Shown: positions 1 to 21,719, counted from the first letter of the stretch. The stretch: DNA of 64,000 bases from Candidatus Woesearchaeota archaeon (GCA_023264635.1 JAHFLT010000002.1:19139-83138), one strand, 5' to 3'. Notes: a model not told the origin generated them from the letters alone. Translations and numbers: made by a program.

Positions 1-48
1 ACCGGAGAACTGCGCTTTAATTCTGCAATTATTCCTCATCAGGACATT

Positions 49-9000: not shown

Positions 9001-12000
9001 GAATTAATACAACTGCTACGGGGGGAGGATGACAGATTACTTACTCCCGCAATAAAACTCTTGACACGACTTGGAGCAAAAGCAGTGCCTTCGTTGACCC
9101 TCCTTCTTAGCGATGAAAATGCAATTGCCAGAAGAATGGCTGCAAAAATCTTAATAGGATTAGAGGATGACGCAGCTCCAGCAGTAGATGCACTGATAAA
9201 AGCACTGAATGATGAAGATGAAAATGTTCAGGCATTTGCTGCAAGTGCATTGAGTAAGATAAAAAAAGAGAGAAAAAGAATTATCACTGCCATGCTTGCA
9301 CAACTCACAGTAAGTACCTCACCAAGACAAGAAGTTACTCTCATTGAGGCATTAAGCGATATGAAAGCTGAAGAAGCAACTCCCTATCTGATTTCAGCAT
9401 TAGTGAGTGAAACCACAAGACCTGCTGCAACTGAGGCGTTGGGCATGATGGGCAAAAGTGCTGTTTTGCCGCTTATAGACCTGATAGAAAAGACAAATGA
9501 TCTGGACATAAAAACCAGTGCAATTATCGCGCTAGCATCAATTGGTCTTCTTGCAGAAGAAGCCATTCCGACATTAGTCAAGACACTGAAAGACCCACAA
9601 CTGAATATTGTCTCCCTAAATGCATTAATTGCTCTGAAAGATGCTGCACTGCCATCTCTTAAAAAAATTATCGAAGACAGAACAGAAGAACCAACACTAC
9701 GCATCTATGCAATAGAGGGGATGATAAAAATAGGGAAAAATTATAAGGATGTGGGAGAACTACTGTGGGGTATCCTTCTTGACCCTACGGAAAATAGCAA
9801 TGCGAGACATGCTGTTGGTGCTAGGATAACTGCAATAAGTGATGGAGAATCTATTAGCAATAAAATGCAGATAGATCGCAAACTGGCTGAATATATTTCA
9901 CGCCAAACAGATGCGCTAATGGACCTCATCCTGCACCCTGTGAAGAAAGCTGCTCTCAATGCTATTGCAACACAACTTGGAAAAGAGCGTACTGCGCATC
10001 CCAGCGAGAGAAAGATTGGTGAAGATGAGAAACTGACATTATTTGAGTATCTTTTCTCATTGAGCGACGACCAGGTGATGAATGCAAAAGAACTATTTGA
10101 CCAATACTTCAAAAATGACCCAACCCAATATACTATTGACCTTAATTCTCTTACTGAATTGATAAGACATATTGGATTAGATGGTTTAGAGCGATTGATA
10201 GCAATACTAAATGACCCATACCACAGTGTTGAGGATATTCTTGTGCTTGCTCAAGAAAGTCTTGGAGCATTGCCTGAAGCCGAGAGGGAATACACAAAAA
10301 GAAAATTGAGATGGATCATTGAAAACCATCGCATGCTTGAAGAAGAATTACAGGAGATTAAGGAACTCACTGTGGGGATGAGCTCAGAGGATGCTATGGC
10401 ATTATTAGAAGCTATAGATAAAGCAAATACGCCAGATGCGCTTCTTTCATTTACTAGACCAATAGGGCAGATATTCAAAGTCAAGCTGAGCAGCATGCCA
10501 CCAAATGAGGTAACGCCTTTCTTGATAAAAATAATAAATGCGCTTGACAGCATGAAGATTGCAGGAAAAACCAGATTGAATGATGCACAGAAACAGGAGG
10601 TGCTGGCTAAAGTCAGAGAAACAATGCAATCATTGCCAGAACAGGAGCAAAGAAGAGTATTATTCGGCATTCTAACCAAACTAAGCAGGAATAAAGAAGA
10701 TATTCTCACATTCCTGCAGCTATTTGAAGGACAGACGCCATTACAACGATTGGTAAGCGAATTTAGAGATATCCTTAATGATGCCGACATCCAGAATATT
10801 ATTACAACACCATTGCTTACTACTGAGCAAAAGATAGCACTCCTGACGCAGCTAAGCAAAGACCCGATAGACCTAATTCTTAAGAAACTACCACCTGAAG
10901 CAGCAACACTGCAAGAAGATATCAGGAAAATCAGTCAGAAAAGTGCTCCCACAATGGGAACAAAGATTCCCCATGTCTTTTTTGAAACCGTTATGAAGGT
11001 GAGTCAATTTGACTCTTCTGTCATTACGTCATTTCAGCAAGTGATAACTGCTGAGCCTGTTAGAAGGACTGGATTGCTGAAAAACCTGTTGTATGAAAAA
11101 ATGGTTGAGCTGTCCCGAACTGGATATGACAATACGCAACAGATTTTCTCGGGGATACTGAACGCAGTGAAAATCCAGTTTCATGATTTTCGTGATATCT
11201 CCAAAAATGGCAGGGAAGTTGCTGAGACGCTCAAACAACGAATTGAACAGATGATGACAATAAAAGAGGTAAAAGCAAATGCCTTGGGCAATGTGTTTGT
11301 TGATTTTGAGGGGAACCCCTTGCACGAAGAAAACAGAAAACTCAGAGAATTAGCAGAAGTAATTGAAAAAGAGCTGCTTGAAAAGAATATATTCAACAAA
11401 GAAGCATACGAACAGATGCAGAAAATACTCAGCACAATAAAGATTAACGACCTGTTAGCTGCTTTTGGGAATAATGTAAAAATAGAGAATAGGGAAAACG
11501 TCATGAGGAAACTCACAGAATACAGAAATACTCCTGCAGGCAGGCAAAAAGACTATAATGGGTATGACTTGTACAAGTTACTTCAGAAATATCTGAAACA
11601 GAAACATGAAAACATATTCAATACAGTGCTCTACGACGCGCTGATACATGAGATAGAAGGCACATTCTCTCCATGGAGATACCAAAGCCCTGATTACATT
11701 GCAACGCTTGATGCCTTTATTGAAAATGAAATCAAAAAAAATGGGGTTGAGGACGAATTTAAAATCATTGATGGGAAAAATCCCGTAGAAAAATTGGCAA
11801 ACAGTGAGTACAGGGATATCAAACAAAATATGGGGAGAATACGCACATGGGAACAGCCAGCCAGCAAGGCCATAACAATAGGAAAGGAGGAATACACGCT
11901 CTCATTTGCAGATGATTTATTTACACTTATCAACGTAGGAAACAGCCCGTTCTTTTTCAGCTGCCAGAACTGCATAAGCGGTAGCTACAACGAGGGACTG

Positions 12001-12495
12001 CTTGGATACATTGCAAACGGCGCCAATAAGGCAATTGTAGTGAAAAACAAAGATGGTACCATTATCGGCAGACGCATAGTGAGATTACGACTTGTTGACA
12101 ACAGACCAATACTCTTCCTTGAAAAAATGTATGGCAATAAAGGAGAAAAAGAAATGCTTGATTTTGCCAGAGAAATAGCGGCGACAATGGGGCTTCCTCT
12201 TGCAACGCTTGGCCAAGAAGAGCACAAAATGGTGTTATTTGACGGGAGAAGCCCCTACGATTATAGTGATTCATATGGGAGGGTATTAGAAGGGGGTGAT
12301 GTTGGACTTTATAACCATGAAAAACATAACCGCCAAGCTAATCAGGAAGTGACAAAGCCAATAACAATTAGTGTCGGTATGACCATAGAAGAAATCCCTA
12401 TATCTGCGCTTGCAGAGCACATTGCCGCCATACCATTAAATGAAATTATCCCTGCTGCTCAAGCTGCTGCCCAAGAACAGGCAGTAGCTGGATAG
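49..12495 (+). CDS. Giant multidomain protein (>=4148 aa) with two PBS-lyase/HEAT repeat arrays, an FHA domain and a hydrophobic membrane segment. The reading frame is open back to nt 1, so the N-terminus may be truncated by the window
   Basis: Single uninterrupted ORF. HEAT-like repeats (e.g. 'AIFALGNIGSPEA', 'ALKTIGRIGSPEGIPVLIEALGDKD', 'AVYALGFMDSVPQEAVPILIKIL', 'AAKALGNMGSEALP') at aa ~280-480 and ~2560-3230. FHA signature 'KIGRDSGNDIVIEYPSVSRRHLEITYDKQKGISIRDLNSLNGLLI' at aa ~2300. Hydrophobic stretch 'IATVAAAAIVLINPVVGVGIMVGYALYRVG' at aa ~2490. Confidence 0.8.
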   Translation: MGGNDVVDPHKFQRIDGMSLDSPFRHLFIEVATGFDTPQTLKYYNDLALYPETAPLDSTIVQFSMTGRAYLFVHGKGLVDITKKYQELTFQRPANANQQIQRLLEEAKKCGGKITGAATCPVAVFIKLEQAMRTNNINDKYYYLRQARELLQKVQDGIPATEAAQALTPEDIDQVIASIRETKSASPLAQLIQKIKATPIKPEVMALLIEIDEALSSWRYDTVARALEQLNTYGPDALPALPIIHKVMQQTPPYPDLVESIVNMQSNALQVLGKIGSISYVSDLHNALENAHPRIRLNAAIALGIMGERSSKREQEKIIAALGLLITEEKYEGIRSAAIFALGNIGSPEARANLEELVHLKEYEKNDRDIANILISLGEMGHDAIESWETIIPFTSINQPKYVRVTALKTIGRIGSPEGIPVLIEALGDKDTEIHDAAEFGLHVARKEAVPALIKVIDNKNRNVRQSASKILSEGGIDTIAAVPVLMKKGYSAEAISAEAILLHAKKEIEQGISLTEEQKETAAQAIVTALAYKLSPTALPLGLFILKATGATATDAAMMALSEGRIGPEIAKVIVARTATDEQLQLMLLSENAPVRTVALSVFIQQKGAEAIPTLMDALHDASPEVLIASLTFFLVGRIHLLSSEQKRLLGERVTELVEHPRPAVTAKAITILAELGNQDYLPIIVKFIEDNEYSFRAIIKQVSKEWRSSLGIERYTLEQSQAVSTALSSLAAFGHAAIPSIIERIKVPAVQEGIFNRAYKLFDAELDATINNDLTGFRNWIENDPQNAALLLFDNYPRPEEITSPEQRQEVVTAIKQDLRAARVAQTKYRGVAERYVNGRVVERKMLESPEFVRAKELKLKRLAQMLRNVGEQEAAELQEAERLLQGEAPIFREAERQMGTVTSPEMEQLIAQDPTVTRETALVVLDKLQSELQLPTVLPEEVLPAMQKVKPMLKEELDIDMAITRKLAIAAGDYMGALVSVFTLNPVFVTAGLFAGTAVGGEALKLAMTTSTRQRVEEILSALEEILNLPPDKVANRVVPFEHLYTVARQIHNARADLSDEYIVTRLKELYNARIFAWQIEQLEEFWVLPDIEQAIAIAKSNFPIEYAKAFWNKGAGIHDIAELSERYRTTEGQVTVDLMYHFLPQIERFRMDDYNTLEKRVMDAEMDVLAEAVALPLEEDTTGRIRELLRGREAEVVPENEVKLIEQKRCESPCKERNAFMAALAQAAGLALSDAEREKAQSEGKIVVSLPNGVFVTQEAHNFLQKVVDVKFFESLLEYSNPKHAQYDEVKKVLHQAEQDGKVRTALERAVVQMAKAGIALHENNAFAARDAIRNAVREMNGAGEGITQQLNAALDAKDYRTLMQLLATPESATRQAVLGAMGKRGLAGLAPPFEPALYLKYAYAYAAEEGVRFLMDYVMPFAQQNELQPGWALLYLARAYRMNPEHVKDILGKKPHLATLEIFADEELRIRSATAVTTGQLKKNLLVGDRIHGTSLGALESVRSDGLELSKSFEGEAVVAATEVDNPIKNNLNLLDPLSYAIGRSRERGDWPILLRISRNNPEQPKREGPGYNEIWYHNNIHPEYIEYFNPFTGEWKSITKLTPLEGDSLKKQFSDAWKKQQMQVQGQDKLLVTTNQIYMDTPQYERAYERATAVKTPSLVGEPTRAEHDFTEKKVLALGERLKWPQEMQKKYRSKITILNNEDEALYMYNAYKKIYPTQIEGVQFQRDDYFKPFSVPEKYDVVTLNFPDYVGIPNFEQLVTNIKNALKEEGKFYLVSEGEPGVVSGHITQGNVALLRALKEKGFILVLEGNAEKNLRGYTEEASSLHFPLDLAYVWVFRKSINVPKQADCKGGSLVCTVTFSQPIEDILVTADRITEKIEEATDAILPAPITSLSNDKRSISMTYKTEQQFDYDALKKEIESGLPSGERVTLATSSEEILRKDPHIISFETGRYTLPEIDYSQFSDQARAKYLVNRLDAFLNGPIIKDSFETHEKRVTWRETLPQDVRAYYETNSLRYNLIVKLTFSGWSIIRFYLGDAYIQNNEEVKTAVEEIEKLYLTIDKYDKLSLEDKVLHGKEIKRAAHNVLGALAAGKKAPKGGAGEVSPLQKGAEKAKPLAALTLDIGGQSFPLPKVKVDENIDAEGLLRLIANTADWPQAEKKIKDILAENNLEEGVVVDGDGDLVLYVKDSEGVIRKVGVKAFEQAVSEQVEQPVSCGLGSGFCGGMNTKVLPSIGSETVLRGQTIDIKNPTIELAGKIVEIRLSKSIITLHEKRGRFFLTYEGRDIPLDKPVTKIGRDSGNDIVIEYPSVSRRHLEITYDKQKGISIRDLNSLNGLLISVGKELSPTENVASKNLEVMKKNTRGGMLDLVNKESMGGNAGFYQGYPAVAANFYFNPTTGEIVYFRNIQDVPPDIRAWHAKGTFLAAVDIRSGKYSIFKFWSDTIISGKTMQVMEESIQRFNKEGGFEIPKVTSTTPKGELQMSPIATVAAAAIVLINPVVGVGIMVGYALYRVGTIVFDTIDDWLHPIRPEQQALIDQLKDPNQKEEAANILHGMGARAVPFLLYSLKKMDSETSYSVRNIIVNMGDEAIPALLNALENNDNDIRKNAASIIRSIEPTDKKLIPALIPALSDNDFNVGYDTAITLAKIGADAVPALLKVIKKGGQNSKRNAVYALGFMDSVPQEAVPILIKILQNQDIYYRSFAATALGKSRDPHAIHVLRQALHDTEKKVRAEAAKALGKLNDREVIPELTKLLKDEFIEVRIAAIEAMRIIGITEDDTVTINSLIEIVQTTEDSDIKRAAIRVLGASSSESAVSILVAIARGQNQPQTMKIIALEALGSLGAVAKTAIPHLVEIIRTDPWNNGHYAAKALGNMGSEALPVVLELLRVGGNIPYTIFEDSAVKILVNEGIAAILHQLKGPRSYNRKVAIMALGKLSPEIANTPEIKAELVNALTDHLSSVREKAADALEQMGEAALPELIQLLRGEDDRLLTPAIKLLTRLGAKAVPSLTLLLSDENAIARRMAAKILIGLEDDAAPAVDALIKALNDEDENVQAFAASALSKIKKERKRIITAMLAQLTVSTSPRQEVTLIEALSDMKAEEATPYLISALVSETTRPAATEALGMMGKSAVLPLIDLIEKTNDLDIKTSAIIALASIGLLAEEAIPTLVKTLKDPQLNIVSLNALIALKDAALPSLKKIIEDRTEEPTLRIYAIEGMIKIGKNYKDVGELLWGILLDPTENSNARHAVGARITAISDGESISNKMQIDRKLAEYISRQTDALMDLILHPVKKAALNAIATQLGKERTAHPSERKIGEDEKLTLFEYLFSLSDDQVMNAKELFDQYFKNDPTQYTIDLNSLTELIRHIGLDGLERLIAILNDPYHSVEDILVLAQESLGALPEAEREYTKRKLRWIIENHRMLEEELQEIKELTVGMSSEDAMALLEAIDKANTPDALLSFTRPIGQIFKVKLSSMPPNEVTPFLIKIINALDSMKIAGKTRLNDAQKQEVLAKVRETMQSLPEQEQRRVLFGILTKLSRNKEDILTFLQLFEGQTPLQRLVSEFRDILNDADIQNIITTPLLTTEQKIALLTQLSKDPIDLILKKLPPEAATLQEDIRKISQKSAPTMGTKIPHVFFETVMKVSQFDSSVITSFQQVITAEPVRRTGLLKNLLYEKMVELSRTGYDNTQQIFSGILNAVKIQFHDFRDISKNGREVAETLKQRIEQMMTIKEVKANALGNVFVDFEGNPLHEENRKLRELAEVIEKELLEKNIFNKEAYEQMQKILSTIKINDLLAAFGNNVKIENRENVMRKLTEYRNTPAGRQKDYNGYDLYKLLQKYLKQKHENIFNTVLYDALIHEIEGTFSPWRYQSPDYIATLDAFIENEIKKNGVEDEFKIIDGKNPVEKLANSEYRDIKQNMGRIRTWEQPASKAITIGKEEYTLSFADDLFTLINVGNSPFFFSCQNCISGSYNEGLLGYIANGANKAIVVKNKDGTIIGRRIVRLRLVDNRPILFLEKMYGNKGEKEMLDFAREIAATMGLPLATLGQEEHKMVLFDGRSPYDYSDSYGRVLEGGDVGLYNHEKHNRQANQEVTKPITISVGMTIEEIPISALAEHIAAIPLNEIIPAAQAAAQEQAVAG

Positions 12496-12559: not shown

Positions 12560-13129
12560 ATGGTGCAACAACTAGAAGATTATATAACAAAACTCTTGAA
12601 AAAGGGGTACAGCAAGAATTTCATTAAAGAGCAGCTGCTTAAAGCAGGTTACGATGAGAATGAAGTTTTCCCCCTCATACATGCCCTTGAAGAGCAATTC
12701 TATCCAAAGGATACTGCGAGAAGATGGCACTTCAGTGCTACAGTAATGGGTGTTATCATTATCATATCAATCACCCTCTTTTTTCTATCCAAAGAGAAAC
12801 CAGTGCAGCTCTGCACAGACACATCCTGCTTAACCGCAGCAGCTAATGCATGCCAGCCTGCGCAGTATTATGAGGATATAGATGGCACAAAGATGCTTTA
12901 TGATGTAAGAGGATGTGTTTTAACAAAGAAGTTCACCATTTTTGGCTCAAAAGAACCAAAAGAGATGCAAGACGTTCTTGGAAAAAAGGAAGTTGAATGC
13001 CGTTACCAAGAAGGACGATTTGACAGGGAATGGCTTGATGTGTTTGGTGGACTAGAGAAATGCACTGGTTCTTTAAAAGAGGCTGTTTATGGATTTCGCT
13101 TAGCCCAAGAAGCTCTTCGTACTGTGTAG
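12560..13129 (+). CDS. Hypothetical small membrane protein (one TM helix, Cys-rich C-terminal domain)
   Basis: ORF fills the intergenic gap. TM 'FSATVMGVIIIISITLFFL'; 6 Cys in the predicted extracytoplasmic part. Confidence 0.5.
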   Translation: MVQQLEDYITKLLKKGYSKNFIKEQLLKAGYDENEVFPLIHALEEQFYPKDTARRWHFSATVMGVIIIISITLFFLSKEKPVQLCTDTSCLTAAANACQPAQYYEDIDGTKMLYDVRGCVLTKKFTIFGSKEPKEMQDVLGKKEVECRYQEGRFDREWLDVFGGLEKCTGSLKEAVYGFRLAQEALRTV

Positions 13130-13234
13130 AAATTTTAAGAATTTTGAGCTTTCTACTTCTATATACGACACTGCCATAATCTTTATATAGTAATTACTGC
13201 TGCAAAAAACAGTAAAAATATCGTGAGGGGGTAG

Positions 13235-15076
13235 ATGATGGTGAAAATCAATAACTTTACTGAGCTTGATAGAGTATTACAAAAATCTTTTTCTGCCATT
13301 CGCAAAGACATCGATAAGATAAAGAAAAATACAGAATCACGTGTTGATGACATCAAAAGGGGCTCTGTCCATGAGAAAACCATGGGGGATACGAAAGTCA
13401 AGTTCCTTACATCCGAGATAAGGAAATTGAAGGATGCGCACGCAGACCTTCTTTCGCTGCAGAAGGCACAGATCGATAAGCTTGATAATGTCAACAAAAA
13501 ACATGCAGACGAACTGAAGCATCACCTTTCTCAAGAGCTTTCCAAGACAGAAGTGGAAACAGACCGCCTGAAGAATGACATTGTGAAATTGGTGTCCATG
13601 CTGAAAGACAAGATGGTCACACGGAAACTCTTTGATGAGCGCAATAAAGTCTATGATAATAATCTATGTGAACTCCTTGATGTAAGCAAAGAAATCAAGG
13701 ACTTCAAAGTAAATGCGAGGCTGCAGGTAGACAAGCAGTTGAGCAATACAAAAGAGGATATAGATGTCCTGAAGGAAGAAATTGCATCAATAAACGAGGA
13801 ATTGGGAGAACTAAGGACAACTGCACAGAGCATATCCGGATTGCGAATGGAACTATCAGAATATGTGGGAAAAGATGAATTTTCACAGAAACTCGCGCTT
13901 TTCGACAAAATGAGCACAAGCGTTGAGAAAATTGACCAGACACTTTCAGAATTGACAGAACTAAAGGAACAAGTACAGGGTGCTGGCAAGATAAGAGAGG
14001 ACATTGATTCTGTCAAGAGCCAGCTTGAAAGCGAGCTTACCAGTGTTCGGGACGCAATGCTTGCAAGAAGTGACCTCGATGAAGTACGCGCAAAGGTTGA
14101 TACGCTACAGTCAATGGTATCTAAAGTAGATGAAATAGAAGAAGCAGTAAAGAAAGCAGGCAAAACAGAACAGGATATAGAAGACCTTAAGGATGAGTTA
14201 TTGGCCCTTCCTGAGCTCAGTAAAGAGTTTGAGAAGTTAAAAAAGGATAATGATAAGCTTTCCCTTAAGGTTGATACACAACAGGTAAAATTAGAGTTAT
14301 TGGATGCTACAACACCAAAAAGAAAGGAAGAAAAAGGAAAAAAAATGGAAGAGAAGAACGAACCAGAGCTTCTCATTGAGCAAAAACCAGAAGACTTGCA
14401 AGACACAGAACAGCCTAATGAGCAAGGATTCTTCTCAAAGACGCTTAAAGGCATTGCTGATTTCTTCATAGAGGACGAAGAGGTACAGACGGCGCAGAAC
14501 TCCCCTATAATGGAGCAAACAGAAGAAGTAAAGAGTGAAGTCAAGGAAGAAAAGAAAGATAATGAGCTGTTTATCAAGAATATTGAGAAGATTTTTGATG
14601 AGGAAGAACCATACACCTTCGAGGGAGGACTTCAGCCAGAGATAACAACACAAAAAGCAGGCTTCTTTACAAGGATAAGGAGCGGAGTTGTGAATTTCCT
14701 GTTTGAAGAAGTTGACGATACTGAAGTCGTACCAGAAACGCAACCAGTTGCCCAAGAGGGATTGACTGGTACCTCGGTTGTTGCTGAAACACAACTGGAC
14801 GAGCCTGTTAGTAAAGCAGTGCCAGCACTTGTCAAATCAAAACCGAAGAAAGCAAAGAGGATACAGAAAAAGAGAGAAATCAAAGAAACAAAGGAAGGAA
14901 AGGAAGAACCTCAATACATGCTAAACAAGAAGCCTCATGTCTTTGAAGAGGAAGATGGTGCTGGAGAAACAGAAGAGAATGGCAAAAAGCGCAAATACAA
15001 GAAAATAAAGGGAGATGACCCATTAGCTGAATTTGCAGAAGAGGAAGTGCTTTATCCAGAAGATTATTTTTATTGA
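13235..15076 (+). CDS. Hypothetical acidic coiled-coil protein with basic K/E-rich C-terminal tail
   Basis: 613-aa ORF. Heptad-like, highly charged sequence (E/K/L/D-rich) over ~350 aa. G-rich SD-like 'GAGGGGG' before the ATG. Confidence 0.6.
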   Translation: MMVKINNFTELDRVLQKSFSAIRKDIDKIKKNTESRVDDIKRGSVHEKTMGDTKVKFLTSEIRKLKDAHADLLSLQKAQIDKLDNVNKKHADELKHHLSQELSKTEVETDRLKNDIVKLVSMLKDKMVTRKLFDERNKVYDNNLCELLDVSKEIKDFKVNARLQVDKQLSNTKEDIDVLKEEIASINEELGELRTTAQSISGLRMELSEYVGKDEFSQKLALFDKMSTSVEKIDQTLSELTELKEQVQGAGKIREDIDSVKSQLESELTSVRDAMLARSDLDEVRAKVDTLQSMVSKVDEIEEAVKKAGKTEQDIEDLKDELLALPELSKEFEKLKKDNDKLSLKVDTQQVKLELLDATTPKRKEEKGKKMEEKNEPELLIEQKPEDLQDTEQPNEQGFFSKTLKGIADFFIEDEEVQTAQNSPIMEQTEEVKSEVKEEKKDNELFIKNIEKIFDEEEPYTFEGGLQPEITTQKAGFFTRIRSGVVNFLFEEVDDTEVVPETQPVAQEGLTGTSVVAETQLDEPVSKAVPALVKSKPKKAKRIQKKREIKETKEGKEEPQYMLNKKPHVFEEEDGAGETEENGKKRKYKKIKGDDPLAEFAEEEVLYPEDYFY

Positions 15077-15272
15077 GTAAAAATCAACTGAAAAATGAGA
15101 GATTTAATACCCGCGCTAATTCTGCTTGAGTAATGATTCTACTCTTCTTTTCCATTGATTGGTACAGAATTTCACGAGAGACACGTTCTGCTTGCTTCAT
15201 CTTTCGCTCTGTGCTGCTCTAGATTGATATATCTCTCTCTAAAAATGGAATGGTAACGATGCAAAATAAGAC

Positions 15273-16565
15273 TTATCTTTCTCTCTGTTCCATCCGTCTA
15301 TAAATGAGATATCCCATGACTAGGAGTACGATAAAGATGATAGCACCAACCCAGAACTTTGTTTCTTTCTCAACAGTAGGGGGAGTGGAGGGAGCAGGGG
15401 GTGTTTCCTTCTTCTCTTCTGGTTTTACTTCTTCTTTCTTACCAGTATCTTCTTTCTTTTCATCTGGTTTCGTTTCTTTTGTCCCTTCTTTCTGTTCTTC
15501 AGTGGCAATAATTTCCTCTTTAGTTTCTTTACCAATAATTGCATAATAACTTAGCCCTTGGAAAGTTGACTCATATCCTACGGAAACACCGGAATCACTT
15601 ATTTTGCTTGTTGGCATCTCTTTCCACTCTTTATCAACTAATCTCAGCAGGACAACATTCTCTGACTTAAGCCGCTTATCACTCAACCAGTCCTTCGCCA
15701 CAGTAAAGGTAATAGTAGTGACAGCTACATCTTCATCCTTTATTTTATCATGCTCAACTTTAATATACTCATAAACAGCATTCTTTAATTCTGGCGCATC
15801 TGGTATTTTAGGATTAAATCTCAATATCTTAATTTCTACTTTCTCCAACGTTTTCTTGAGCTTGATAAGTATCTTGGTGAATGCGATAAACTCACTTATA
15901 ATAGGTATCTGAATCACTTTATCAGCCGGAATAATCGCAAAATTCTTAGTGACAGTATATCCTGAAGTTGTCTTAGAAACTCCACCACCGCCAAAACCAT
16001 TACTATCTGTTGTACCAGGTGATTCAACTTGAGTTCTAAAAGTAAAGCCACCAACATATTTACAGAAACCAAACCTATCACAACTAGTCACATTGAAAAA
16101 ATAAGGGGTATTCTGCGCAAGATCAAATAAAGTAACAGAATGTGATGCTACAAAGCTTGAACTAGAAGAACTAAGTGTCAAAGCATTTGCTGCAGTTCCA
16201 TAAGTAACCACACTTGTTGCAACTTCATCAGTGTCCCATGTAACAGTTGCCTGACGCACGAGGACATTACTTGTCGCTACTCGGGTAATAACTGGATTGA
16301 ATACATCTACCGAAAGAATACCATACCGCCCAGAGTTGGAAACATTGTTATATGTCCCTTGGATTAAATCATCTCCCTCAACCCTATTCCACGTTTTTCT
16401 TGAATCTGCATCGGTCATTGTGCCGATATTACCAGTAAGATTTCCTCCAAGATGCCCTGTAGCACTTACTAAAATAAGACTCGTATTTTCTCCAATCCCT
16501 GTAAAAGCTGAGACTGATGTAATCAACACCAAAAATACAACCAATAACACATACACCTTTTGCAT
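15273..16565 (-). CDS. Secreted surface protein with N-terminal signal peptide, PGF-pre-PGF-like domain, T/P/E/K-rich linker and C-terminal TM anchor
   Basis: N-term 'MQKVYVLLVVFLVLITSVSA'. The domain 'ILRFNPKIPDAPELKNAVYEYIKVEHDKIKDEDVAVTTITFTVAKDWL' resembles archaeal PGF-pre-PGF surface-protein domains. C-term 'FWVGAIIFIVLLVMGYLIYRR'. Confidence 0.6.
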   Translation of the reverse strand: MQKVYVLLVVFLVLITSVSAFTGIGENTSLILVSATGHLGGNLTGNIGTMTDADSRKTWNRVEGDDLIQGTYNNVSNSGRYGILSVDVFNPVITRVATSNVLVRQATVTWDTDEVATSVVTYGTAANALTLSSSSSSFVASHSVTLFDLAQNTPYFFNVTSCDRFGFCKYVGGFTFRTQVESPGTTDSNGFGGGGVSKTTSGYTVTKNFAIIPADKVIQIPIISEFIAFTKILIKLKKTLEKVEIKILRFNPKIPDAPELKNAVYEYIKVEHDKIKDEDVAVTTITFTVAKDWLSDKRLKSENVVLLRLVDKEWKEMPTSKISDSGVSVGYESTFQGLSYYAIIGKETKEEIIATEEQKEGTKETKPDEKKEDTGKKEEVKPEEKKETPPAPSTPPTVEKETKFWVGAIIFIVLLVMGYLIYRRMEQRER

Positions 16566-16592
16566 GAATCAACCCTTTTTTATTTTATAAGT

Positions 16593-16934
16593 TTATGTTA
16601 CAACTTTAAATTTGTCCATAATTTTATTGTTTTGATAATCATAAATTACAACTGTATCACCAAATGCAATCATATAATCACCATTTTTTGCATTTTCATA
16701 AAACTGTGGTTGTTGCGCTCGAACCTTATTGATATCATCTATCTTTGCAATCAATGCATCATTAGGTATCTTTACAAACACATTTAGTTTTGCCTTAAAA
16801 TCTGATGGCAAACCGATTGCGGCACCAGTAACTGGCACTGGACTTGACTGCACACCAAACTGTTGTCCCTTTTCATACCAGACACCAGCTGCAAATCCGA
16901 CTAATAACACTACAATCAACCATTTTGCATCCAT
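16593..16934 (-). CDS. Hypothetical small membrane-anchored protein
   Basis: 113-aa ORF; N-terminal TM 'WLIVVLLVGFAAGVWY'. Confidence 0.45.
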   Translation of the reverse strand: MDAKWLIVVLLVGFAAGVWYEKGQQFGVQSSPVPVTGAAIGLPSDFKAKLNVFVKIPNDALIAKIDDINKVRAQQPQFYENAKNGDYMIAFGDTVVIYDYQNNKIMDKFKVVT

Positions 16935-17004
16935 TTCTCATCACCGTTTCGCGCAAACATCACCTCCTTTTTAAATTTTTAGATTGAAAAAATAAAAAAA
17001 ATAC

Positions 17005-19710
17005 TTAGGCACAGACACACATCTGGTAATATTTCGAATCATTTCCAGTAGCACTACAAGCTCCTGTTCGAATAGTTGAATTGGCAGGTCCTAGTCCATC
17101 TGATGCCTGTGTGCTGAAATTTAGCTGCAATGTACATGTTAAACCGTGACTTGTACATACAGTACTACATGTATTGAAAGTAGTGTTCATGAAGAATGGC
17201 AGACCACCCATACTTGGCCCTGCTGTCTTTGCTATAGTTACGTTCTGCTGGCCACCATCTAAATACTCACGGTCAATCTTCGCAAGAGACAGATTACCTT
17301 CCAAAATGCCAGTTGTCACATTAAATCCGCCAGTAACATTTGCACCTGTATTGATGTTTAATGCTGCACTAAATGTTGACACACCTGCAAGAACAGTCAA
17401 TCCACCTGTCTGGACTATCTCTCCGCCAACTACTGTTGATCCCCCGGATGTAACGTTCAAGCCGCCAGTAACATTCGCACCTGTATTGATGTTTAATGCT
17501 GCACTAAATGTTGACACACCTGCAAGAACCGTCAACCCACCAGTCTGAATTGTTTCTCCGCCAACTACCGTTAATCCTCCGGATGTGACGTTCAAGCCAT
17601 TTGTTACGTTAGCGCCTGTTGTTGCACTCAAACCGCCAGATGTTGTAGTCAAACCAGCTGTGATTGTTGCTCCACCTGCAGATACTGTTAATCCGCCAGA
17701 TGCAACTGTTAGTGCACCATTGCTGGTAATGTTTGCTGCCTGAAGAGCTGCTTGCAGACTAACGTTTCCTACGCCAGTTGCAGTCCCTCCAAGAACGCTA
17801 GCATTCCCACCTGCTACTGTGAAAATCACTCTATTGGCAGTACCTGTTCCTTCAGAGAGCGTCATTATATTTCCTGTTCCATTATAAGTAACTGCCAATC
17901 CCGTAAAGCTGTTAGCAATTGGAGTCTGTTGAACTGTTATATTCACACCACTTGCTCCGACGCTTAGACCATTATTTGCAACAGTTGCACCTGTTACAGT
18001 TGCTCCACCTGCAAGAACAGTCAATCCACCTGTCTGGACTATTTGTCCGCCAACTACCGTTAATCCTCCGGATGTAACGTTCAAGCCATTTGTTACGTTA
18101 GCGCCTGTTGTTGCACTCAAACCGCCAGATGTTGTGGTCAAACCAGCAGTAATTGTTGCTCCACCTGCTGTCACTGTCAAACCAGTATCAACCACTGTTA
18201 AACCTCCAGCTATTTGTGCACCGCTAGCCAATGTTGTACCGCCAGATACGCTTAATCCATTACTTACTGTCAAATTTCTGATTGTACCATTATTTTCTAC
18301 AGTTAAGTTTCGGATTGCTACGCCTGCATTGAATCTCACATCGCTATTAAAGGTAGACGCACCGGTTGCTGTAAGTCCACCTGACTCGATTGTTACTCCC
18401 TGCTTCATCACAGATGTTGTTCCTACAGTCAATGAACCTGTCAAATTACTTGGACCAGTAACGTTCAAACCATCTGCTGTAGAGGCTAAACCACCAGTGC
18501 CTACTGTTGTTCTACCAGTGATAGTAGCTCCGCCAGCTAGAACCGTCAACCCACCAGTCTGAATTGTTTCTCCGCCAACTACCGTTAATCCTCCGGATGT
18601 GACGTTTAATCCACCAGTAATATTAGCTCCGCCACCATTTACTCTGAGACCTAATCCAACAACACCTTCACCCAATAAATCAGATCTGGCTGGAGATACT
18701 ACTGTGAGCCCACCGGCTGCCTCTATAGCAACAGCATTTTTAACAGTGATAGAACCTCCCACTACTAATGAACCTGTTAAATTAGTTGGACCAGTGACAT
18801 TGAGACCATCTGCAGTAGAGGCCAAACCACCAGTACCTACTGTTGTTCTGCCAGTGATAGTAGCTCCGCCAGTTAGAATCGTTAACCCGCCTGTCTGAAT
18901 TATAGAGCCACCAACAGTTGTCAAACCACCAGAGGTGATATTCGCACCACCAGTGATATTTACGCCGGCGTTGAGATTAACTGGCCCATTTGCATTCAAA
19001 GTTCCTGCAATAGTTAATGAACCACTGATAACGAGACTATTAATCTGAAGACCATTAGCAGTAATATTACCAACATCATTCACAGAAAAGATAACTGAAG
19101 TTGCGTTTTTAATGAGGATTGGAAAAGAACGATTATTAATGAGGTTTTGCGTCTGTTGTATTTCAAGACCCGTCCCATTACCAGCATTCTGCACCAATAG
19201 ACCAATACCATTGCCAGTACTTGTTTTGTTAATGGCAAACGCATTAGTATTAGCATCCTGATTTACTCTTCTTACATCTCCAATAGATGATTGAAATGCC
19301 TGACGGTCTTGCCCGTTAAAATTGAGGTTTTCGTTATTCACCCACATATCTATATAATAAACAGATTTGTATTCAAGAGAAAGATTATTTGATCCATTAC
19401 CTATCATGATATCAAATCTACCATTATTAATTGAAGTGAAAAAGTCATTTGTTGAATTGTAGACAACACTCCCCCCAGTAGCATTATCAAAAATAACAAC
19501 TTGAAGATTACCATTGTTAATAGGGTTGCCTACAGAATCAACAACATTACCTTGTAATGCCATGATATTATTTCCTCGGAAGTCTGCTGCAAAAACAAGA
19601 GAGCTCACGCTAAGCAATGCAATAACCATAATGATTATTAAGAAGGATAAGCGAGATATCAAAAATGCCTTATTTACCGTCACCACATTGTTATTCATTT
19701 GTTCTATCAC
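17005..19710 (-). CDS. Large secreted adhesin-like protein with Gly/Thr-rich beta-helix-like repeats, many N-x-S/T sequons and a Cys-rich C-terminal domain
   Basis: 901-aa ORF. N-terminal TM/signal 'FLISRLSFLIIIMVIALLSVSSLVFA'. Tandem motif 'SGGLTVVGGETIQTGGLTVLAGGATITG' repeated many times. C-term has 8 Cys ('TCSTVCTSHGLTCT...CSATG...QMCVCA'). Confidence 0.7.
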   Translation of the reverse strand: MIEQMNNNVVTVNKAFLISRLSFLIIIMVIALLSVSSLVFAADFRGNNIMALQGNVVDSVGNPINNGNLQVVIFDNATGGSVVYNSTNDFFTSINNGRFDIMIGNGSNNLSLEYKSVYYIDMWVNNENLNFNGQDRQAFQSSIGDVRRVNQDANTNAFAINKTSTGNGIGLLVQNAGNGTGLEIQQTQNLINNRSFPILIKNATSVIFSVNDVGNITANGLQINSLVISGSLTIAGTLNANGPVNLNAGVNITGGANITSGGLTTVGGSIIQTGGLTILTGGATITGRTTVGTGGLASTADGLNVTGPTNLTGSLVVGGSITVKNAVAIEAAGGLTVVSPARSDLLGEGVVGLGLRVNGGGANITGGLNVTSGGLTVVGGETIQTGGLTVLAGGATITGRTTVGTGGLASTADGLNVTGPSNLTGSLTVGTTSVMKQGVTIESGGLTATGASTFNSDVRFNAGVAIRNLTVENNGTIRNLTVSNGLSVSGGTTLASGAQIAGGLTVVDTGLTVTAGGATITAGLTTTSGGLSATTGANVTNGLNVTSGGLTVVGGQIVQTGGLTVLAGGATVTGATVANNGLSVGASGVNITVQQTPIANSFTGLAVTYNGTGNIMTLSEGTGTANRVIFTVAGGNASVLGGTATGVGNVSLQAALQAANITSNGALTVASGGLTVSAGGATITAGLTTTSGGLSATTGANVTNGLNVTSGGLTVVGGETIQTGGLTVLAGVSTFSAALNINTGANVTGGLNVTSGGSTVVGGEIVQTGGLTVLAGVSTFSAALNINTGANVTGGFNVTTGILEGNLSLAKIDREYLDGGQQNVTIAKTAGPSMGGLPFFMNTTFNTCSTVCTSHGLTCTLQLNFSTQASDGLGPANSTIRTGACSATGNDSKYYQMCVCA
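17330..18900. repeat. Intragenic near-identical DNA repeats (~120-bp units) inside the adhesin-like gene
   Basis: 17340-17460 is almost identical to 17460-17580. 17560-17660 matches 18060-18160. 18480-18600 matches 18790-18900. Confidence 0.7.
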
Positions 19711-19722
19711 CTCAAAACCACC

Positions 19723-20019
19723 TCATGGCCCCCCAATTCGAAAATTTGTAATTGCTATATTTTTCCCTGAAGACGTGATGTTTTGTGTTTCAGCTACTAG
19801 TGAGCCTGTTGATAAGCCAGTCAGAACATATGAAGATGTATTTTGGTGTTTGACCACAGAAGAGGTAACAATATTGCTCTTTTCTATTAAGCTACTTTTG
19901 AAAATAGTAACAAGACCCAGTATACTTAACAATGATAATAATAATACTTTCACATCTCTTTGCATTAATTCACCTTTTTTTGTTGCTAAATCTGATGGGG
20001 TTTCGAGTGGTAAATCCAT
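19723..20019 (-). CDS. Hypothetical small secreted/membrane protein immediately upstream of, and co-directional with, the adhesin gene
   Basis: 98-aa ORF with hydrophobic N-region 'VLLLSLLSILGLVTIF'. Its stop lies 12 nt before the adhesin start. An overlapping + strand ORF is judged spurious. Confidence 0.3.
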   Translation of the reverse strand: MDLPLETPSDLATKKGELMQRDVKVLLLSLLSILGLVTIFKSSLIEKSNIVTSSVVKHQNTSSYVLTGLSTGSLVAETQNITSSGKNIAITNFRIGGP

Positions 20020-21024: not shown

Positions 21025-21719
21025 AGAGAACGATGAACATGCCATGTATACGTTGCGTGGACAGTGTATCCTGTTTTGCGCGCTATAATGGGTCCTGAGA
21101 CAAAATGAGGAAAGCAAATAATCATTCTGCCGTAAAGAAGAGATTTTGTGTGCAACAAGAAGGAAAGATACAATGAAATAAGTGACTTGACAGAAGTGCT
21201 CTTGCCGTAAGGTAAATCAGTAACAATAGCATTTATTTTTTGTGATAATGAACATGCATCCTTGTATGCGAACGTTGCCGGGAATCCTGCGAGCCGTTTT
21301 TTGGCAATGGCTATCGCTACCTTGTCAACATCATAACCTACAACAGGATGTCCTAGTTTAGCTGCTTCTAATAAGATTCCTCCAGTACCACAGAATGGAT
21401 CCACTATCTCTGTCGAGCGCGGAACCTGTGTGAGATTAACCATCACACGCGCAAGTTTGGGTGGAAGACCGTTTGGCCGTGCTCTTTCTCTTTTTACAAA
21501 GATGCTTTTTTTACGTCGCTGGAGAGGCACCTGTTTATCATTAGTTATAATGAAGACATCTTTAACCAGCCCAAGATCTTTATTGTAGACAAAACCGTTT
21601 ACTAGAAGCCTTTCACCTTCCTCTGCAAGAATCCTTAGTGTGGGGTAAACACTGAACAGTTCTGCCTTTGCAAGACATACATTTTCACCAGATAAGATAA
21701 TAAGATACTTATTTTCCAT
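20991..21719 (-). CDS. Trm11/UPF0020-like RNA (guanine-N2) methyltransferase
   Basis: SAM-binding 'DPFCGTGGILLEAAKLG', acidic 'GYDVD', catalytic 'DLPYG'. The 3' end overlaps the DUF192 gene by 34 nt, convergently. Confidence 0.6.
   Translation of the reverse strand: MENKYLIILSGENVCLAKAELFSVYPTLRILAEEGERLLVNGFVYNKDLGLVKDVFIITNDKQVPLQRRKKSIFVKRERARPNGLPPKLARVMVNLTQVPRSTEIVDPFCGTGGILLEAAKLGHPVVGYDVDKVAIAIAKKRLAGFPATFAYKDACSLSQKINAIVTDLPYGKSTSVKSLISLYLSFLLHTKSLLYGRMIICFPHFVSGPIIARKTGYTVHATYTWHVHRSLYRELLVLSNK

What the first reader, a model, noticed from the sequence alone, without database searches (positions are those of the whole stretch)
12560..20019. Contiguous cell-surface / secretome locus downstream of the giant gene
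Six consecutive ORFs after the giant gene all carry signal peptides or TM anchors. They are a type-II membrane Cys-rich protein, an acidic coiled-coil protein, a PGF-pre-PGF-like surface protein with a T/P/E/K-rich stalk and C-terminal anchor, a small membrane protein, a 901-aa adhesin-like beta-helix protein and a 98-aa leader-like protein. Together with the giant protein this forms a ~20-kb block devoted to envelope and host-interaction functions, typical of accessory regions in episymbiotic archaea. The adhesin has >25 N-x-S/T sequons, so it is probably heavily N-glycosylated.
Basis: partly seen in the sequence, partly recalled or inferred. Interest (0 to 1): 0.6.

Follow-up and report, generated by a model that had tools for sequence, protein, structure and literature searches.

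The report
Conserved archaeal surface-protein gene neighbourhood
Next to a giant gene, a small symbiont-type archaeon encodes a cluster of cell-surface proteins that is real and conserved in relatives rather than variable; the surprise is that the giant protein has no sugar-attachment (N-glycosylation) sites at all, while the neighbouring fibre protein has about twice the expected number.

Summary
All six ORFs exist at the stated coordinates. Five of the six have a hydrophobic signal peptide or membrane anchor, against 6 of 49 other ORFs in the window (P about 1.5e-4). The 613-aa acidic coiled-coil protein has none, so "all six" is wrong. The ORFs are not one downstream run. They form two convergent units: giant-g1-g2 on the + strand and g6-g5-g4-g3 on the - strand.

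The PGF-pre-PGF call is confirmed (60.8 bits, cutoff 28), but there is no PGF-CTERM signal. The 901-aa protein has 39 sequons against about 20 expected, and its relatives are also enriched. "Beta-helix" is unproven.

The "variable accessory region" reading fails. GC content is ordinary, the flanks are core genes, and four related contigs (g2 47-66% identical) keep large-protein/g1/g2. Two of them also keep g3-g4-g5.

The archaeon is probably close to Woesearchaeota. The giant protein (7969 aa) has zero N-x-S/T sequons against 37 expected. Its named Woesearchaeota homologues are equally purged, and its named bacterial homologues (Omnitrophota, Elusimicrobia) are not; many of the unpurged homologues carry signal peptides. 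This suggests the giant protein is exported but kept unglycosylated. That supports an envelope role for the whole block, although export itself is not shown.

The parts
1..12495 (+). 3' 12.5 kb of the giant gene. The full product is 7969 aa (P0033) or 8771 aa in the ENA call. In the window it carries HEAT arrays (about nt 598-1950 and 7708-9600), an FHA domain (about nt 6943-7098), a hydrophobic hairpin (about nt 7528-7617) and an uncharacterised conserved module (about nt 11878-12330). It has no N-x-S/T sequon.
   Evidence: The ORF runs off the left edge of the window. Sequon counts are 0 against 19 expected in the window and 0 against 37 for the full length.
12560..13129 (+). g1, 189 aa, single-pass membrane protein. 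It has an N-terminal three-helix domain (residues 1-47), a TM at 58-76 and a C-terminal domain with six invariant cysteines, presumed to be outside the cell.
   Evidence: Alignment with 3 relatives (55-61% identity) shows C85, C90, C98, C119, C147 and C168 invariant. A fourth relative, L006, is 55% identical by tblastn. In the AF2 model only residues 1-47 are confident, at pLDDT 85-92. No family match.
13235..15076 (+). g2, 613 aa, acidic coiled-coil protein with no signal peptide or TM. It has two conserved G-[FIV]-F-[ST]-[KR] motifs followed by acidic runs, and an invariant C-terminal YPEDYFY.
   Evidence: Only one 14-residue window in the protein (400-413) combines a high helical hydrophobic moment with positive mean hydrophobicity. 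The only weak matches are to coiled-coil chains.
15273..16565 (-). g3, 430 aa surface protein. It has a signal peptide, an fn3-like domain (about residues 99-162), a Gly-rich linker, a PGF-pre-PGF domain (229-345), an E/K/T/P stalk (about 349-400), a C-terminal TM (404-422) and a basic tail. There is no PGF motif.
   Evidence: TIGR04213 at 60.8 bits against a cutoff of 28. Pur_ac_phosph_N at 28.9 bits against a cutoff of 30, and a weak fn3 hit. Relatives are 51-71% identical by tblastn (alignment).
16593..16934 (-). g4, 113 aa, with an N-terminal hydrophobic anchor and a conserved C-terminal domain of about 60 residues of unknown family.
   Evidence: Relatives are 42-69% identical by tblastn (alignment). 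No family match.
17005..19710 (-). g5, 901 aa (897 aa if translation starts at the ATG at 19698). It has a signal peptide, an N-terminal region, G/T/N-rich repeats with a period of about 6.5 residues carrying regularly spaced N-[VI]-T sites, and a C-terminal domain with six conserved Cys. It has 39 sequons.
   Evidence: DNA repeats of about 200 nt at 60-87% identity lie at 17375-17711, 17999-18200, 18431-18631, 18524-18725 and 18767-18967. The repeats resemble those of Peptidase_S74-bearing fibre-like proteins at 30-37% identity, but g5 lacks that domain.
19723..20019 (-). g6, 98 aa, small membrane protein with a hydrophobic segment at 22-40. The real start may be Met19 (nt 19965), which would give an 80-aa protein with a classical N-terminal signal or anchor.
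   Evidence: An atttatata TATA-like box abuts the annotated ATG, and a GGGAG lies 8 nt before the Met19 codon (inference). Conservation could not be tested because all related contigs break inside the g5 repeats.
15077..15272 (.). Convergent intergenic gap of 196 nt between the two units. In relative L002 this position holds an extra gene for a 132-aa Nuc_deoxyrib_tr-like protein.
21709..22641 (-). Neighbouring gene outside the stated range. It encodes a membrane-anchored PpiC/SurA-type peptidyl-prolyl isomerase, likely an extracytoplasmic foldase, with 6 sequons against 1.5 expected.
   Evidence: TM at residues 14-32.

Best explanation
The region is a conserved envelope gene neighbourhood in the core genome of a Woesearchaeota-like archaeon. 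It is made of two convergent units, not a variable island.

Unit B (- strand: g6, g5, then an oligo-T run, then g4 and g3) encodes Sec-exported surface components:
- g5 is a long G/T/N-repeat, beta-rich fibre-like protein. Its regularly spaced N-[VI]-T sites are substrates for the archaeal oligosaccharyltransferase, and it ends in a disulfide-bonded Cys-rich knob.
- g3 is a PGF-pre-PGF protein held above the membrane on a charged stalk by a plain C-terminal TM anchor.
- g4 and g6 are two small single-pass partner proteins.

Unit A (+ strand) is the end of a giant HEAT/FHA protein gene followed by two invariably linked partners:
- g1 is a single-pass protein with a small cytoplasmic helical domain and a three-disulfide ectodomain.
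- g2 is a cytoplasmic coiled-coil protein that probably sits on the inner face of the membrane through amphipathic helices.

The giant protein is probably exposed outside the cell but must stay free of N-glycans. g1 and g2 are proposed to be its membrane-associated partners.

Shown here: gene structures, domains, hydrophobic segments, conservation and synteny, and the sequon statistics. Inferred: export, glycosylation, topology, and physical association of the products.
For: - Hydrophobic signal or anchor segments occur in 5 of 6 ORFs against 6 of 49 in the rest of the window.
- The PGF-pre-PGF domain scores above its cutoff.
- g5 sequons are enriched: 39 against 20 expected, 0 of 20,000 shuffles. 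Its relatives show 20 against 5.5 and 9 against 2.1, and the six-Cys C-terminal domain is conserved.
- Synteny: large protein-g1-g2 is kept in L002, L003, L005 and L006, and g3-g4-g5 converge on it in L002 and L005. In L003 the convergent gene is an S_layer_C protein, which is also a surface protein.
- All residues that look functional are invariant across relatives.
- GC content is ordinary and the flanks are core genes.
- Giant protein: N-x-S is 0 against 9.6 expected. N-x-T is 2 against 10.2, and both are N-P-T. Control motifs are normal. The full length has 0 against 37, P about 8e-17.
- Purged homologues with a source name are Candidatus Woesearchaeota: 1 against 36, 1 against 20.5 and 2 against 17.6.
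- The named bacterial homologues, from Omnitrophica and Elusimicrobia, are not purged. 22 of 42 homologues with a complete N-terminus have a classical signal peptide by a hydropathy rule.
- P0078 has a signal peptide, and its 8 sequons all lie in the first 1115 of 5341 residues.
- In Omnitrophota giant proteins, HEAT repeats are reported only in predicted extracellular regions, and a Rotamase_2 PPIase is conserved nearby (bioRxiv 10.1101/2023.11.21.568195). This window has a membrane-anchored PpiC-type PPIase 9 kb downstream of the giant gene.
Against: - g2 has no export signal, so unit A is not simply 'secretome'.
- HEAT, FHA and a weak DEAD-like region (24 bits, below the cutoff) are typical of cytoplasmic proteins.
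- The 7969-aa gene model has no N-terminal signal peptide. The 8771-aa model could not be read.
- The purge covers both sides of the internal hydrophobic hairpin, which does not fit a simple single-TM topology.
- No aglB, archaeosortase or secretion genes lie in the 64-kb window.
- Only four short related contigs were found, and none reaches g6.
- Signal peptides were judged by hydropathy only.
- Both AF2 models were poor.
- A physical or functional link between the two convergent units is not shown.
Confidence: 0.6

Rival explanations
1. Only unit B (g3-g6) is a surface locus. The giant HEAT/FHA protein and g2 are cytoplasmic scaffold or cytoskeleton-like proteins, g1 is an unrelated membrane protein, and the adjacency of the two units is incidental. 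The sequon purge would then have a cause unrelated to export.
For: - HEAT, FHA and DEAD-like domains and a duplicated module inside the giant protein are classically intracellular.
- g2 has no signal peptide or TM.
- The 7969-aa model has no N-terminal signal peptide.
- In L003 the convergent neighbour is a different gene, so the two units are separable.
Against: - The purge is exact for the glycosylation motif. N-P-T is tolerated, while S/T-x-N, N-S/T and N-x-x-S/T are all at expected levels.
- The purge is confined to this protein in the window. The other 54 ORFs have 63 sequons against 60 expected.
- It is confined to the homologues named as archaeal.
- No cytoplasmic process that reads N-x-S/T is known in archaea (established knowledge).
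- Many bacterial homologues carry signal peptides.
- HEAT repeats are predicted to be extracellular in Omnitrophota giant proteins.
Confidence: 0.3
2. One reading: a roughly 20-kb variable accessory region typical of episymbiotic archaea, devoted to host interaction and differing between related genomes.
For: - g5 diverges much faster than its neighbours: 38-44% identity against 42-71%.
- g5 contains internal DNA repeats that break assemblies.
- L002 has an inserted gene and L003 a different convergent gene.
- The upstream large protein in L003 is a mosaic with a different C-terminus.
Against: - Gene order of g1-g2, and in two contigs g3-g4-g5, is kept across relatives at about 50-70% identity.
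- There is no GC anomaly.
- No mobile-element genes are present.
- The surroundings are core genes.
Confidence: 0.15
3. g5 is a tail-fibre-like protein of viral origin, and the locus is a prophage or viral remnant.
For: The best database hits (30-37% identity over the repeats) are proteins that carry the Peptidase_S74 tail-fibre chaperone domain.
Against: - g5 itself lacks that domain.
- There is no PHROG match for any of the six proteins.
- There is no tblastn match in 50,697 phage records.
- No viral genes lie nearby.
- The similarity is confined to low-complexity G/T repeats.
Confidence: 0.03

Closest known systems
Archaeal PGF-pre-PGF / PGF-CTERM surface glycoproteins (archaeosortase A substrates such as the Haloferax volcanii S-layer glycoprotein)
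   Same: g3 has a signal peptide, a PGF-pre-PGF domain above its cutoff, a Thr/Pro/Glu/Lys-rich stalk, and a C-terminal hydrophobic helix followed by basic residues.
   Different: The PGF tripeptide is absent (K-F/L/V-W-V/I-G in its place) and there is no PGF-CTERM model match at E<=1. No archaeosortase gene is visible in the window. g3 is probably anchored by an uncleaved TM helix.
Omnitrophota giant 'Archaeovorin' proteins (West-Roberts et al., bioRxiv 10.1101/2023.11.21.568195)
   Same: The protein is very large (about 8,000 aa) with many HEAT_2 repeats. It shares sequence modules with giant proteins of Omnitrophica and Elusimicrobia bacteria, for example P0076 at E=1.3e-15 and P0080 at 2.1e-14; unnamed signal-peptide-bearing homologues score down to 1.7e-78. 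A rotamase-type PPIase is encoded nearby.
   Different: The host is an archaeon. No glycosyl-transferase, glycosyl-hydrolase or peptidase domains were detected in the in-window half. No T2SS or pilus genes lie nearby. No signal peptide is present in the available gene model. The total sequon purge is specific to the archaeal members.
Nanohaloarchaeal giant surface proteins (SPEARE; SVXNc_0300 / BNXNv_0298, PMC10266531)
   Same: These are giant proteins (8,880-9,409 aa) of DPANN archaea proposed to mediate host interaction. A P-loop ATPase gene lies in the neighbourhood; here it is a HerA/DUF87-type ATPase at 22700-24016.
   Different: No Ig-like, beta-propeller or VirB4/TraG domains were found here. 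The architecture is HEAT/FHA-based. No homology between the two was detected.
Fibre-like repeat proteins with a C-terminal Peptidase_S74 intramolecular chaperone domain (phage tail spikes; algal and metagenomic homologues)
   Same: The G/T-rich 'GGLTVxxGGxTV' repeats of g5 align at 30-37% identity over hundreds of residues. This suggests an extended beta-rich fibre.
   Different: g5 has no S74, EGF or other recognised domain and instead ends in its own six-Cys domain. It has a signal peptide and twofold sequon enrichment. It has no phage matches.

Membership tests
PGF-pre-PGF domain proteins (TIGR04213) | Match to the domain model above its trusted cutoff | tested here: met
   60.8 bits against a cutoff of 28, E=1.4e-16, g3 residues 229-345. 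The domain is nearly invariant in relative L002.
PGF-CTERM / archaeosortase A substrates | C-terminal Pro-Gly-Phe motif followed by a TM helix and a basic tail (TIGR04126) | tested here: not met
   No PGF-CTERM hit at E<=1. The C-terminus reads ...EKETKFWVGAIIFIVLLVMGYLIYRRMEQRER. A TM helix and a basic tail are present but PGF is absent, also in the relatives.
PGF-CTERM / archaeosortase A substrates | Archaeosortase (ArtA) encoded in the genome | not testable with these tools
   Only 64 kb of the genome is available. None of the ORFs scanned is an archaeosortase.
Sec-exported / membrane-anchored proteins | N-terminal n/h/c signal peptide or a hydrophobic TM segment | tested here: met
   A Kyte-Doolittle 19-residue window of at least 1.7 is reached in g1, g3, g4, g5 and g6 but not in g2. 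This is a heuristic only; SignalP and DeepTMHMM were not available.
Right-handed beta-helix adhesins | Recognisable beta-helix repeat family or a confident beta-solenoid model | tested here: inconclusive
   No Pfam, NCBIfam or PDB match. The single-sequence AF2 model has mean pLDDT 44 and only short strands. The repeat period is about 6.5 residues.
Archaeal N-glycoproteins | N-x-S/T sequons on an exported polypeptide | tested here: met
   g5 has 39 against 20 expected (P<5e-5), and its relatives are 3.6- to 4.3-fold enriched. The PPIase has 6 against 1.5.
Archaeal N-glycoproteins | AglB oligosaccharyltransferase present and glycans actually attached | not testable with these tools
   aglB is not in the window. 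No proteomic data are available.
Omnitrophota-type giant HEAT-repeat proteins | More than 5000 aa with multiple HEAT arrays and sequence homology to bacterial giant proteins | tested here: met
   7969 aa. HEAT_2 E=3e-101 with 15 stretches. Homologues include Omnitrophica and Elusimicrobia proteins.
Omnitrophota-type giant HEAT-repeat proteins | N-terminal signal peptide and predicted extracellular HEAT regions | tested here: inconclusive
   The 7969-aa model has no signal peptide. The 8771-aa ENA model was unreadable. Indirect support comes from the sequon purge.
Nanohaloarchaeal SPEARE giant proteins | Ig-like or beta-propeller ectodomains and a VirB4/TraG-like ATPase domain | tested here: not met
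   Pfam scans of the in-window 4164 aa found only HEAT, Arm and FHA.
Genomic island / accessory region | Atypical composition, mobility genes, and absence from related genomes | tested here: not met
   GC is 0.39-0.41 against a window range of 0.39-0.45. No integrase or transposase genes are present. Synteny holds in 4 related contigs.

The most novel reading that the evidence does not exclude
Woesearchaeotal giant HEAT-repeat proteins are exported, or delivered towards a host cell, and have been purged of every N-glycosylation sequon so that they pass the AglB-bearing membrane unglycosylated. The fibre protein encoded a few kb away is selected for dense glycosylation. g1 and g2, always encoded immediately downstream, would be dedicated membrane partners of the giant protein. 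Sequon purging would then be a new, sequence-only marker for archaeal proteins that are exposed outside the cell but must stay glycan-free, for example effectors that have to be threaded through a channel.
Probability: 0.4. Interest if true: 0.75.

Novelty: new variant of a known kind. Interest (0 to 1): 0.5.

Why it matters
How DPANN archaea build their surface and engage hosts is largely unknown, and their giant genes have no assigned mechanism. This work contributes three things.

- It defines a conserved gene set (large protein-g1-g2, plus a glycosylated fibre, a PGF-pre-PGF protein and small anchors) that can be targeted experimentally.
- It provides a cheap and very strong statistical signature: 0 of 37 expected sequons in the archaeal giant protein, normal counts in the named bacterial homologues, and enrichment in the neighbouring fibre.

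If the signature reflects exposure to the oligosaccharyltransferase, it gives a testable handle on the localisation of giant proteins in uncultivated archaea. It could also be applied proteome-wide.

Tried and rejected
- Two genome-contig scans (methyltransferase neighbour; g2 alignment), two metagenome-contig scans (g2 and g3 alignments) and two viral-contig scans found no related locus. The lineage is rarely sampled, and every window protein tested is a singleton at 90% identity.
- The search for homologous proteins timed out on the giant protein and found nothing with its C-terminal part. The exhaustive representative search was used instead.
- Single-sequence AF2 models of g5 (pLDDT 44) and g1 (pLDDT 48; only residues 1-47 confident) were too poor for fold searches.
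- PHROGs, a phage tblastn search and PDB sequence or profile searches gave nothing useful.
- The giant protein's C-terminal module has no Pfam, NCBIfam or PDB match.
- The sigma-70 promoter and intrinsic terminator scans were at chance level and do not apply to archaea.
- No tRNA or Rfam hit occurs in the window.
- A literature search for the sample accessions found nothing.
- Similarity between g7 and the N-terminus of g2 was tested and rejected.
- Asn deamidation as the cause of the purge was rejected, because N-S/N-T dipeptides are at the expected frequency.
- A prophage origin for g5 was rejected.
Full report
**Observation**

The six ORFs lie exactly where the finding says: g1 12560-13129(+), g2 13235-15076(+), g3 15273-16565(-), g4 16593-16934(-), g5 17005-19710(-) and g6 19723-20019(-). 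All are called as genes on the source contig.

A Kyte-Doolittle scan finds strong hydrophobic segments in five of them. g1 has a TM at residues 58-76. g3 has a signal peptide (...VSA|F) and a C-terminal TM at 404-422. g4 has a hydrophobic segment at 1-19, g5 at 23-41 (...VFA|AD), and g6 at 22-40. g2 has none at all. By the same criterion only 6 of the 49 other ORFs in the window score, so 5 of 6 is unlikely by chance (binomial P about 1.5e-4). 'All six' is therefore wrong, but the clustering is real.

The six are also not a single run downstream of the giant gene. g1 and g2 follow it on the + strand. g6-g5-g4-g3 lie on the - strand and converge on g2 across a 196-nt gap.

**Anatomy of the six proteins**

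g1 (189 aa) has a confidently modelled N-terminal three-helix domain (pLDDT 85-92 for residues 1-47), one TM, and a 110-residue C-terminal domain. Its six cysteines are invariant in three relatives. This fits an N-in, C-out topology with a disulfide-bonded ectodomain, which is an inference.

g2 (613 aa) is acidic, with 138 D+E against 106 K+R. Its only weak similarities are to coiled coils: an SMC-related protein, the reovirus sigma-1 tail and GCN4. Across five homologues it keeps two G-[FIV]-F-[ST]-[KR] motifs followed by acidic runs, and an invariant C-terminal YPEDYFY. The first motif is the only stretch in the protein that combines a high helical hydrophobic moment with positive mean hydrophobicity. 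This suggests an amphipathic helix that binds the membrane surface, again an inference.

g3 (430 aa) has a genuine PGF-pre-PGF domain (TIGR04213, 60.8 bits against a cutoff of 28). An fn3-like domain sits just below its cutoff. These are followed by an E/K/T/P stalk, a TM helix and a basic tail. It has no PGF motif and no PGF-CTERM match.

g4 (113 aa) and g6 (98 aa) are small single-pass proteins with no family. The true start of g6 may be Met19, because a TATA-like box abuts the annotated ATG and a GGGAG precedes Met19.

g5 (901 aa) has a signal peptide and G/T/N-rich repeats with a period of about 6.5 residues. Part of the repeat region is encoded by DNA repeats of about 200 nt at 60-87% identity. 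It ends in a six-Cys domain that is conserved in relatives. It has no Pfam, NCBIfam, PHROG, PDB or phage match. Its only database relatives are repeat proteins that carry a Peptidase_S74 chaperone domain, which g5 lacks. The AF2 model is unreliable at pLDDT 44, so 'beta-helix' is unproven.

g5 carries 39 N-x-S/T sequons against 19.98 expected, and 0 of 20,000 shuffles reach 39. Fragments of its relatives carry 20 against 5.5 and 9 against 2.1. Many of the sites sit in the repeated G-A-N-V-T / G-L-N-V-T motif.

**Conservation**

A protein search with g2 found only four homologues among 5.8 billion sequences, at 47-65% identity. Their contigs show the following:

- L002: large-protein C-terminus, g1, g2, an extra gene, then convergent g3, g4 and g5.
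- L005: the same order without the extra gene.
- L003 and L006: large protein, g1, g2.

Identities to the window proteins are:

| Protein | Identity |
|---|---|
| giant C-terminus | 52% |
| g1 | 55-61% |
| g2 | 47-66% |
| g3 | 51-71% |
| g4 | 42-69% |
| g5 | 38-44% |

There is some variation. L002 has an inserted Nuc_deoxyrib_tr-like gene. In L003 the convergent gene is an S_layer_C protein instead of g3. The upstream large ORF in L003 is a mosaic relative that shares 148 aa at 51% identity, has its own FHA domain and has a different C-terminus. All related contigs break inside the g5 repeats, so the conservation of g6 is unknown.

**Context**

The window is archaeal: aIF2, S4e, Hef and PriL are present. 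The block is flanked by core genes. These include a UPF0020 methyltransferase, a membrane-anchored PpiC/SurA-type PPIase, a HerA/DUF87 ATPase, PRPP synthetase, MetK, MTHFR, FtsZ, Trm1 and a ribosomal protein cluster. GC content is unremarkable. No tRNA or Rfam feature is present. Taken with the synteny, this contradicts the 'variable accessory region' reading. The fast-evolving, repeat-bearing g5 is the only clearly plastic element.

**The giant gene**

The giant gene runs off the left edge of the window. The full product is 7969 aa (P0033), or 8771 aa in another gene call. The in-window half has two HEAT arrays, an FHA domain, a hydrophobic hairpin, an internally duplicated 190-aa module and an uncharacterised conserved C-terminal module.

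While checking the sequon claim for g5 I found that the giant protein has no sequon at all. N-x-S is 0 against 9.6 expected. N-x-T is 2 against 10.2, and both are the non-glycosylatable N-P-T. The controls are normal: S-x-N 13 against 9.6, T-x-N 8 against 10.2, N-[ST] 19 against 19.8, N-x-x-[ST] 17 against 19.8, and D-x-[ST] 19 against 22. Over the full length the count is 0 against 37.1, a Poisson P of about 8e-17. The other 54 ORFs in the window have 63 against 60 expected.

An exhaustive search with the C-terminal 964 aa found 573 related proteins. Five large homologues are similarly purged:

| Homologue | Observed | Expected |
|---|---|---|
| P0057 | 1 | 36 |
| P0047 | 1 | 20.5 |
| P0052 | 0 | 15 |
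| P0034 | 2 | 17.6 |
| P0078 | 8 | 31 |

The three of these that carry source names are all 'Candidatus Woesearchaeota archaeon'. Nearly all the remaining homologues have normal counts. The two that carry names are from Omnitrophica and Elusimicrobia bacteria. Of the 42 homologues with a complete N-terminus, 22 begin with a classical signal peptide by a hydropathy rule. In P0078, which has a signal peptide, all 8 sequons lie in the first 1115 residues and none in the remaining 4226. The giant-protein fragments in L002 and L003 also have no sequon, against 4.3 and 2.6 expected.

The motif specificity, the restriction to one protein family, and the archaea-versus-bacteria contrast together point to selection against N-glycosylation. 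That implies exposure to the outward-facing oligosaccharyltransferase.

Published work on Omnitrophota giant proteins reports HEAT repeats exclusively in predicted extracellular regions, and a Rotamase_2 PPIase conserved near the giant genes (bioRxiv 10.1101/2023.11.21.568195). This window likewise has a membrane-anchored PpiC-type PPIase 9 kb downstream of the giant gene, with 6 sequons against 1.5 expected.

**Mechanism**

The best-supported model has two parts. Unit B supplies Sec-exported surface components: a glycosylated fibre (g5), a stalked PGF-pre-PGF protein (g3) and two small anchors (g4, g6). Unit A supplies a giant HEAT-repeat protein that reaches the cell exterior unglycosylated, together with its two constant partners. 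g1 spans the membrane and g2 sits on the cytoplasmic face.

Export, glycosylation, topology and physical association are all inferred.

The main rival is that the giant protein and g2 are cytoplasmic scaffolds and only unit B is surface-related. HEAT, FHA and DEAD-like domains, the lack of a visible signal peptide, and the fact that the purge spans both sides of the hydrophobic hairpin all favour that rival. The exactness and the taxonomic pattern of the purge argue against it.

**Comparison and novelty**

g3 is a member of the PGF-pre-PGF domain family but not of the PGF-CTERM sorting class. The giant protein is an archaeal relative of the bacterial giant HEAT-repeat proteins. It is unrelated in architecture to the nanohaloarchaeal SPEARE proteins (PMC10266531). 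g1, g2, g4, g5 and g6 belong to no described family.

The block as flagged is a fairly ordinary, though uncharacterised, archaeal surface locus. The opposite sequon selection in neighbouring genes is the unusual feature, and I found no report of it in the papers I searched.

**Limits**

The lineage of the window was not determined directly. Only four short related contigs exist. No dedicated signal-peptide or topology predictor was available. No usable structure model was obtained. The rest of the genome, including aglB, was out of reach.

Noticed in passing
window 1-12495 (+), and full-length protein P0033: The giant HEAT/FHA protein has no N-x-S/T sequon: 0 against 19 expected in the window and 0 against 37 over 7969 aa. 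The only N-x-T occurrences in the in-window part are N-P-T. Control motifs are at expected levels. Homologues named as Woesearchaeota are equally purged, and homologues named as Omnitrophica and Elusimicrobia are not.
   Followed up: yes
window 1-48: The giant ORF has no stop codon before the left edge of the window. The window holds only the 3' 12.5 kb of a gene of 24-26 kb (7969 or 8771 aa depending on the gene call).
   Followed up: yes
window ~11878-12330 (+): A conserved module of about 150-225 aa (F-x-D-D-x-x-T-L-x-N-x-G-N ... C-Q ... R-R-I-V-R-L ... Y-S-D-x-Y-G) is shared with hundreds of proteins. These include Omnitrophica and Elusimicrobia giant proteins and many proteins of 800-1400 aa. 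It has no Pfam, NCBIfam or PDB match, and it occurs twice in one homologue (P0043).
   Followed up: partly
window ~5074-5613 (+) and P0033 residues 3305-3480: There is an internal duplication within the giant protein: two copies of a module of about 190 aa, 34.5% identical (E=7e-30). It contains a VLALGER...TLNFPDY...GKF(F/Y)LVSE pattern. It has no Pfam match.
   Followed up: partly
window 21709-22641 (-): This gene encodes a PpiC/SurA-type peptidyl-prolyl isomerase with an N-terminal membrane anchor (residues 14-32) and 6 sequons against 1.5 expected. It is probably an extracytoplasmic foldase. A rotamase gene is also reported near Omnitrophota giant genes.
   Followed up: partly
window 22700-24016 (+): A HerA/DUF87-type P-loop ATPase (438 aa) lies 10 kb downstream of the giant gene. 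Nanohaloarchaeal giant genes are followed by VirB4/TraG-type ATPases. Whether there is any link here is unknown.
   Followed up: no
window 37388-38245 (+): An NlpC/P60 peptidase with an SH3 domain, which is a bacterial-type cell-wall endopeptidase, is encoded in an archaeal genome. It could be relevant to interaction with a bacterial partner.
   Followed up: no
window 25267-26448 (-): The S-adenosylmethionine synthetase is of the bacterial/eukaryotic MetK type (PF00438, PF02772, PF02773) rather than the archaeal type.
   Followed up: no
window 19965-20019 (-): The annotated start of g6 is directly preceded by a TATA-like atttatata. An SD-like GGGAG precedes Met19. The protein may therefore be 80 aa long with a classical N-terminal signal or anchor.
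   Followed up: partly
window 16935-17004 (-): An oligo-T run (tatttttttatttttt) directly follows the g5 stop codon, and is followed by an AGGAGG. g6-g5 and g4-g3 may therefore be separate transcripts rather than one four-gene operon.
   Followed up: no
L002:5109-5507 (+); L003:4958-5389 (-): The relatives differ at the convergence point. L002 has an inserted gene for a 132-aa Nuc_deoxyrib_tr-like protein. L003 has an S_layer_C family gene (PF05124, 33.9 bits) in place of g3.
   Followed up: partly
L003:2-2140 (+): The large ORF upstream of g1/g2 in this relative is a mosaic. It shares 148 aa at 51% identity with P0033 residues 5911-6051. It has its own FHA-like segment and a different C-terminus with a Cys...His...Asp pattern that resembles a papain or transglutaminase-like core. 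That last point is by eye only.
   Followed up: partly
window 20219-20626 (-): g7 (135 aa) lies upstream of g6 on the same strand. It has an N-terminal coiled coil and a C-terminal region that resembles a winged helix (by eye), so it could be a regulator. It has no family match and no similarity to g2.
   Followed up: partly
whole window: There are no tRNA genes and no Rfam matches in 64 kb. All ten proteins looked up (nine from the window) are singletons at 90% identity, which points to a very sparsely sampled lineage.
   Followed up: yes
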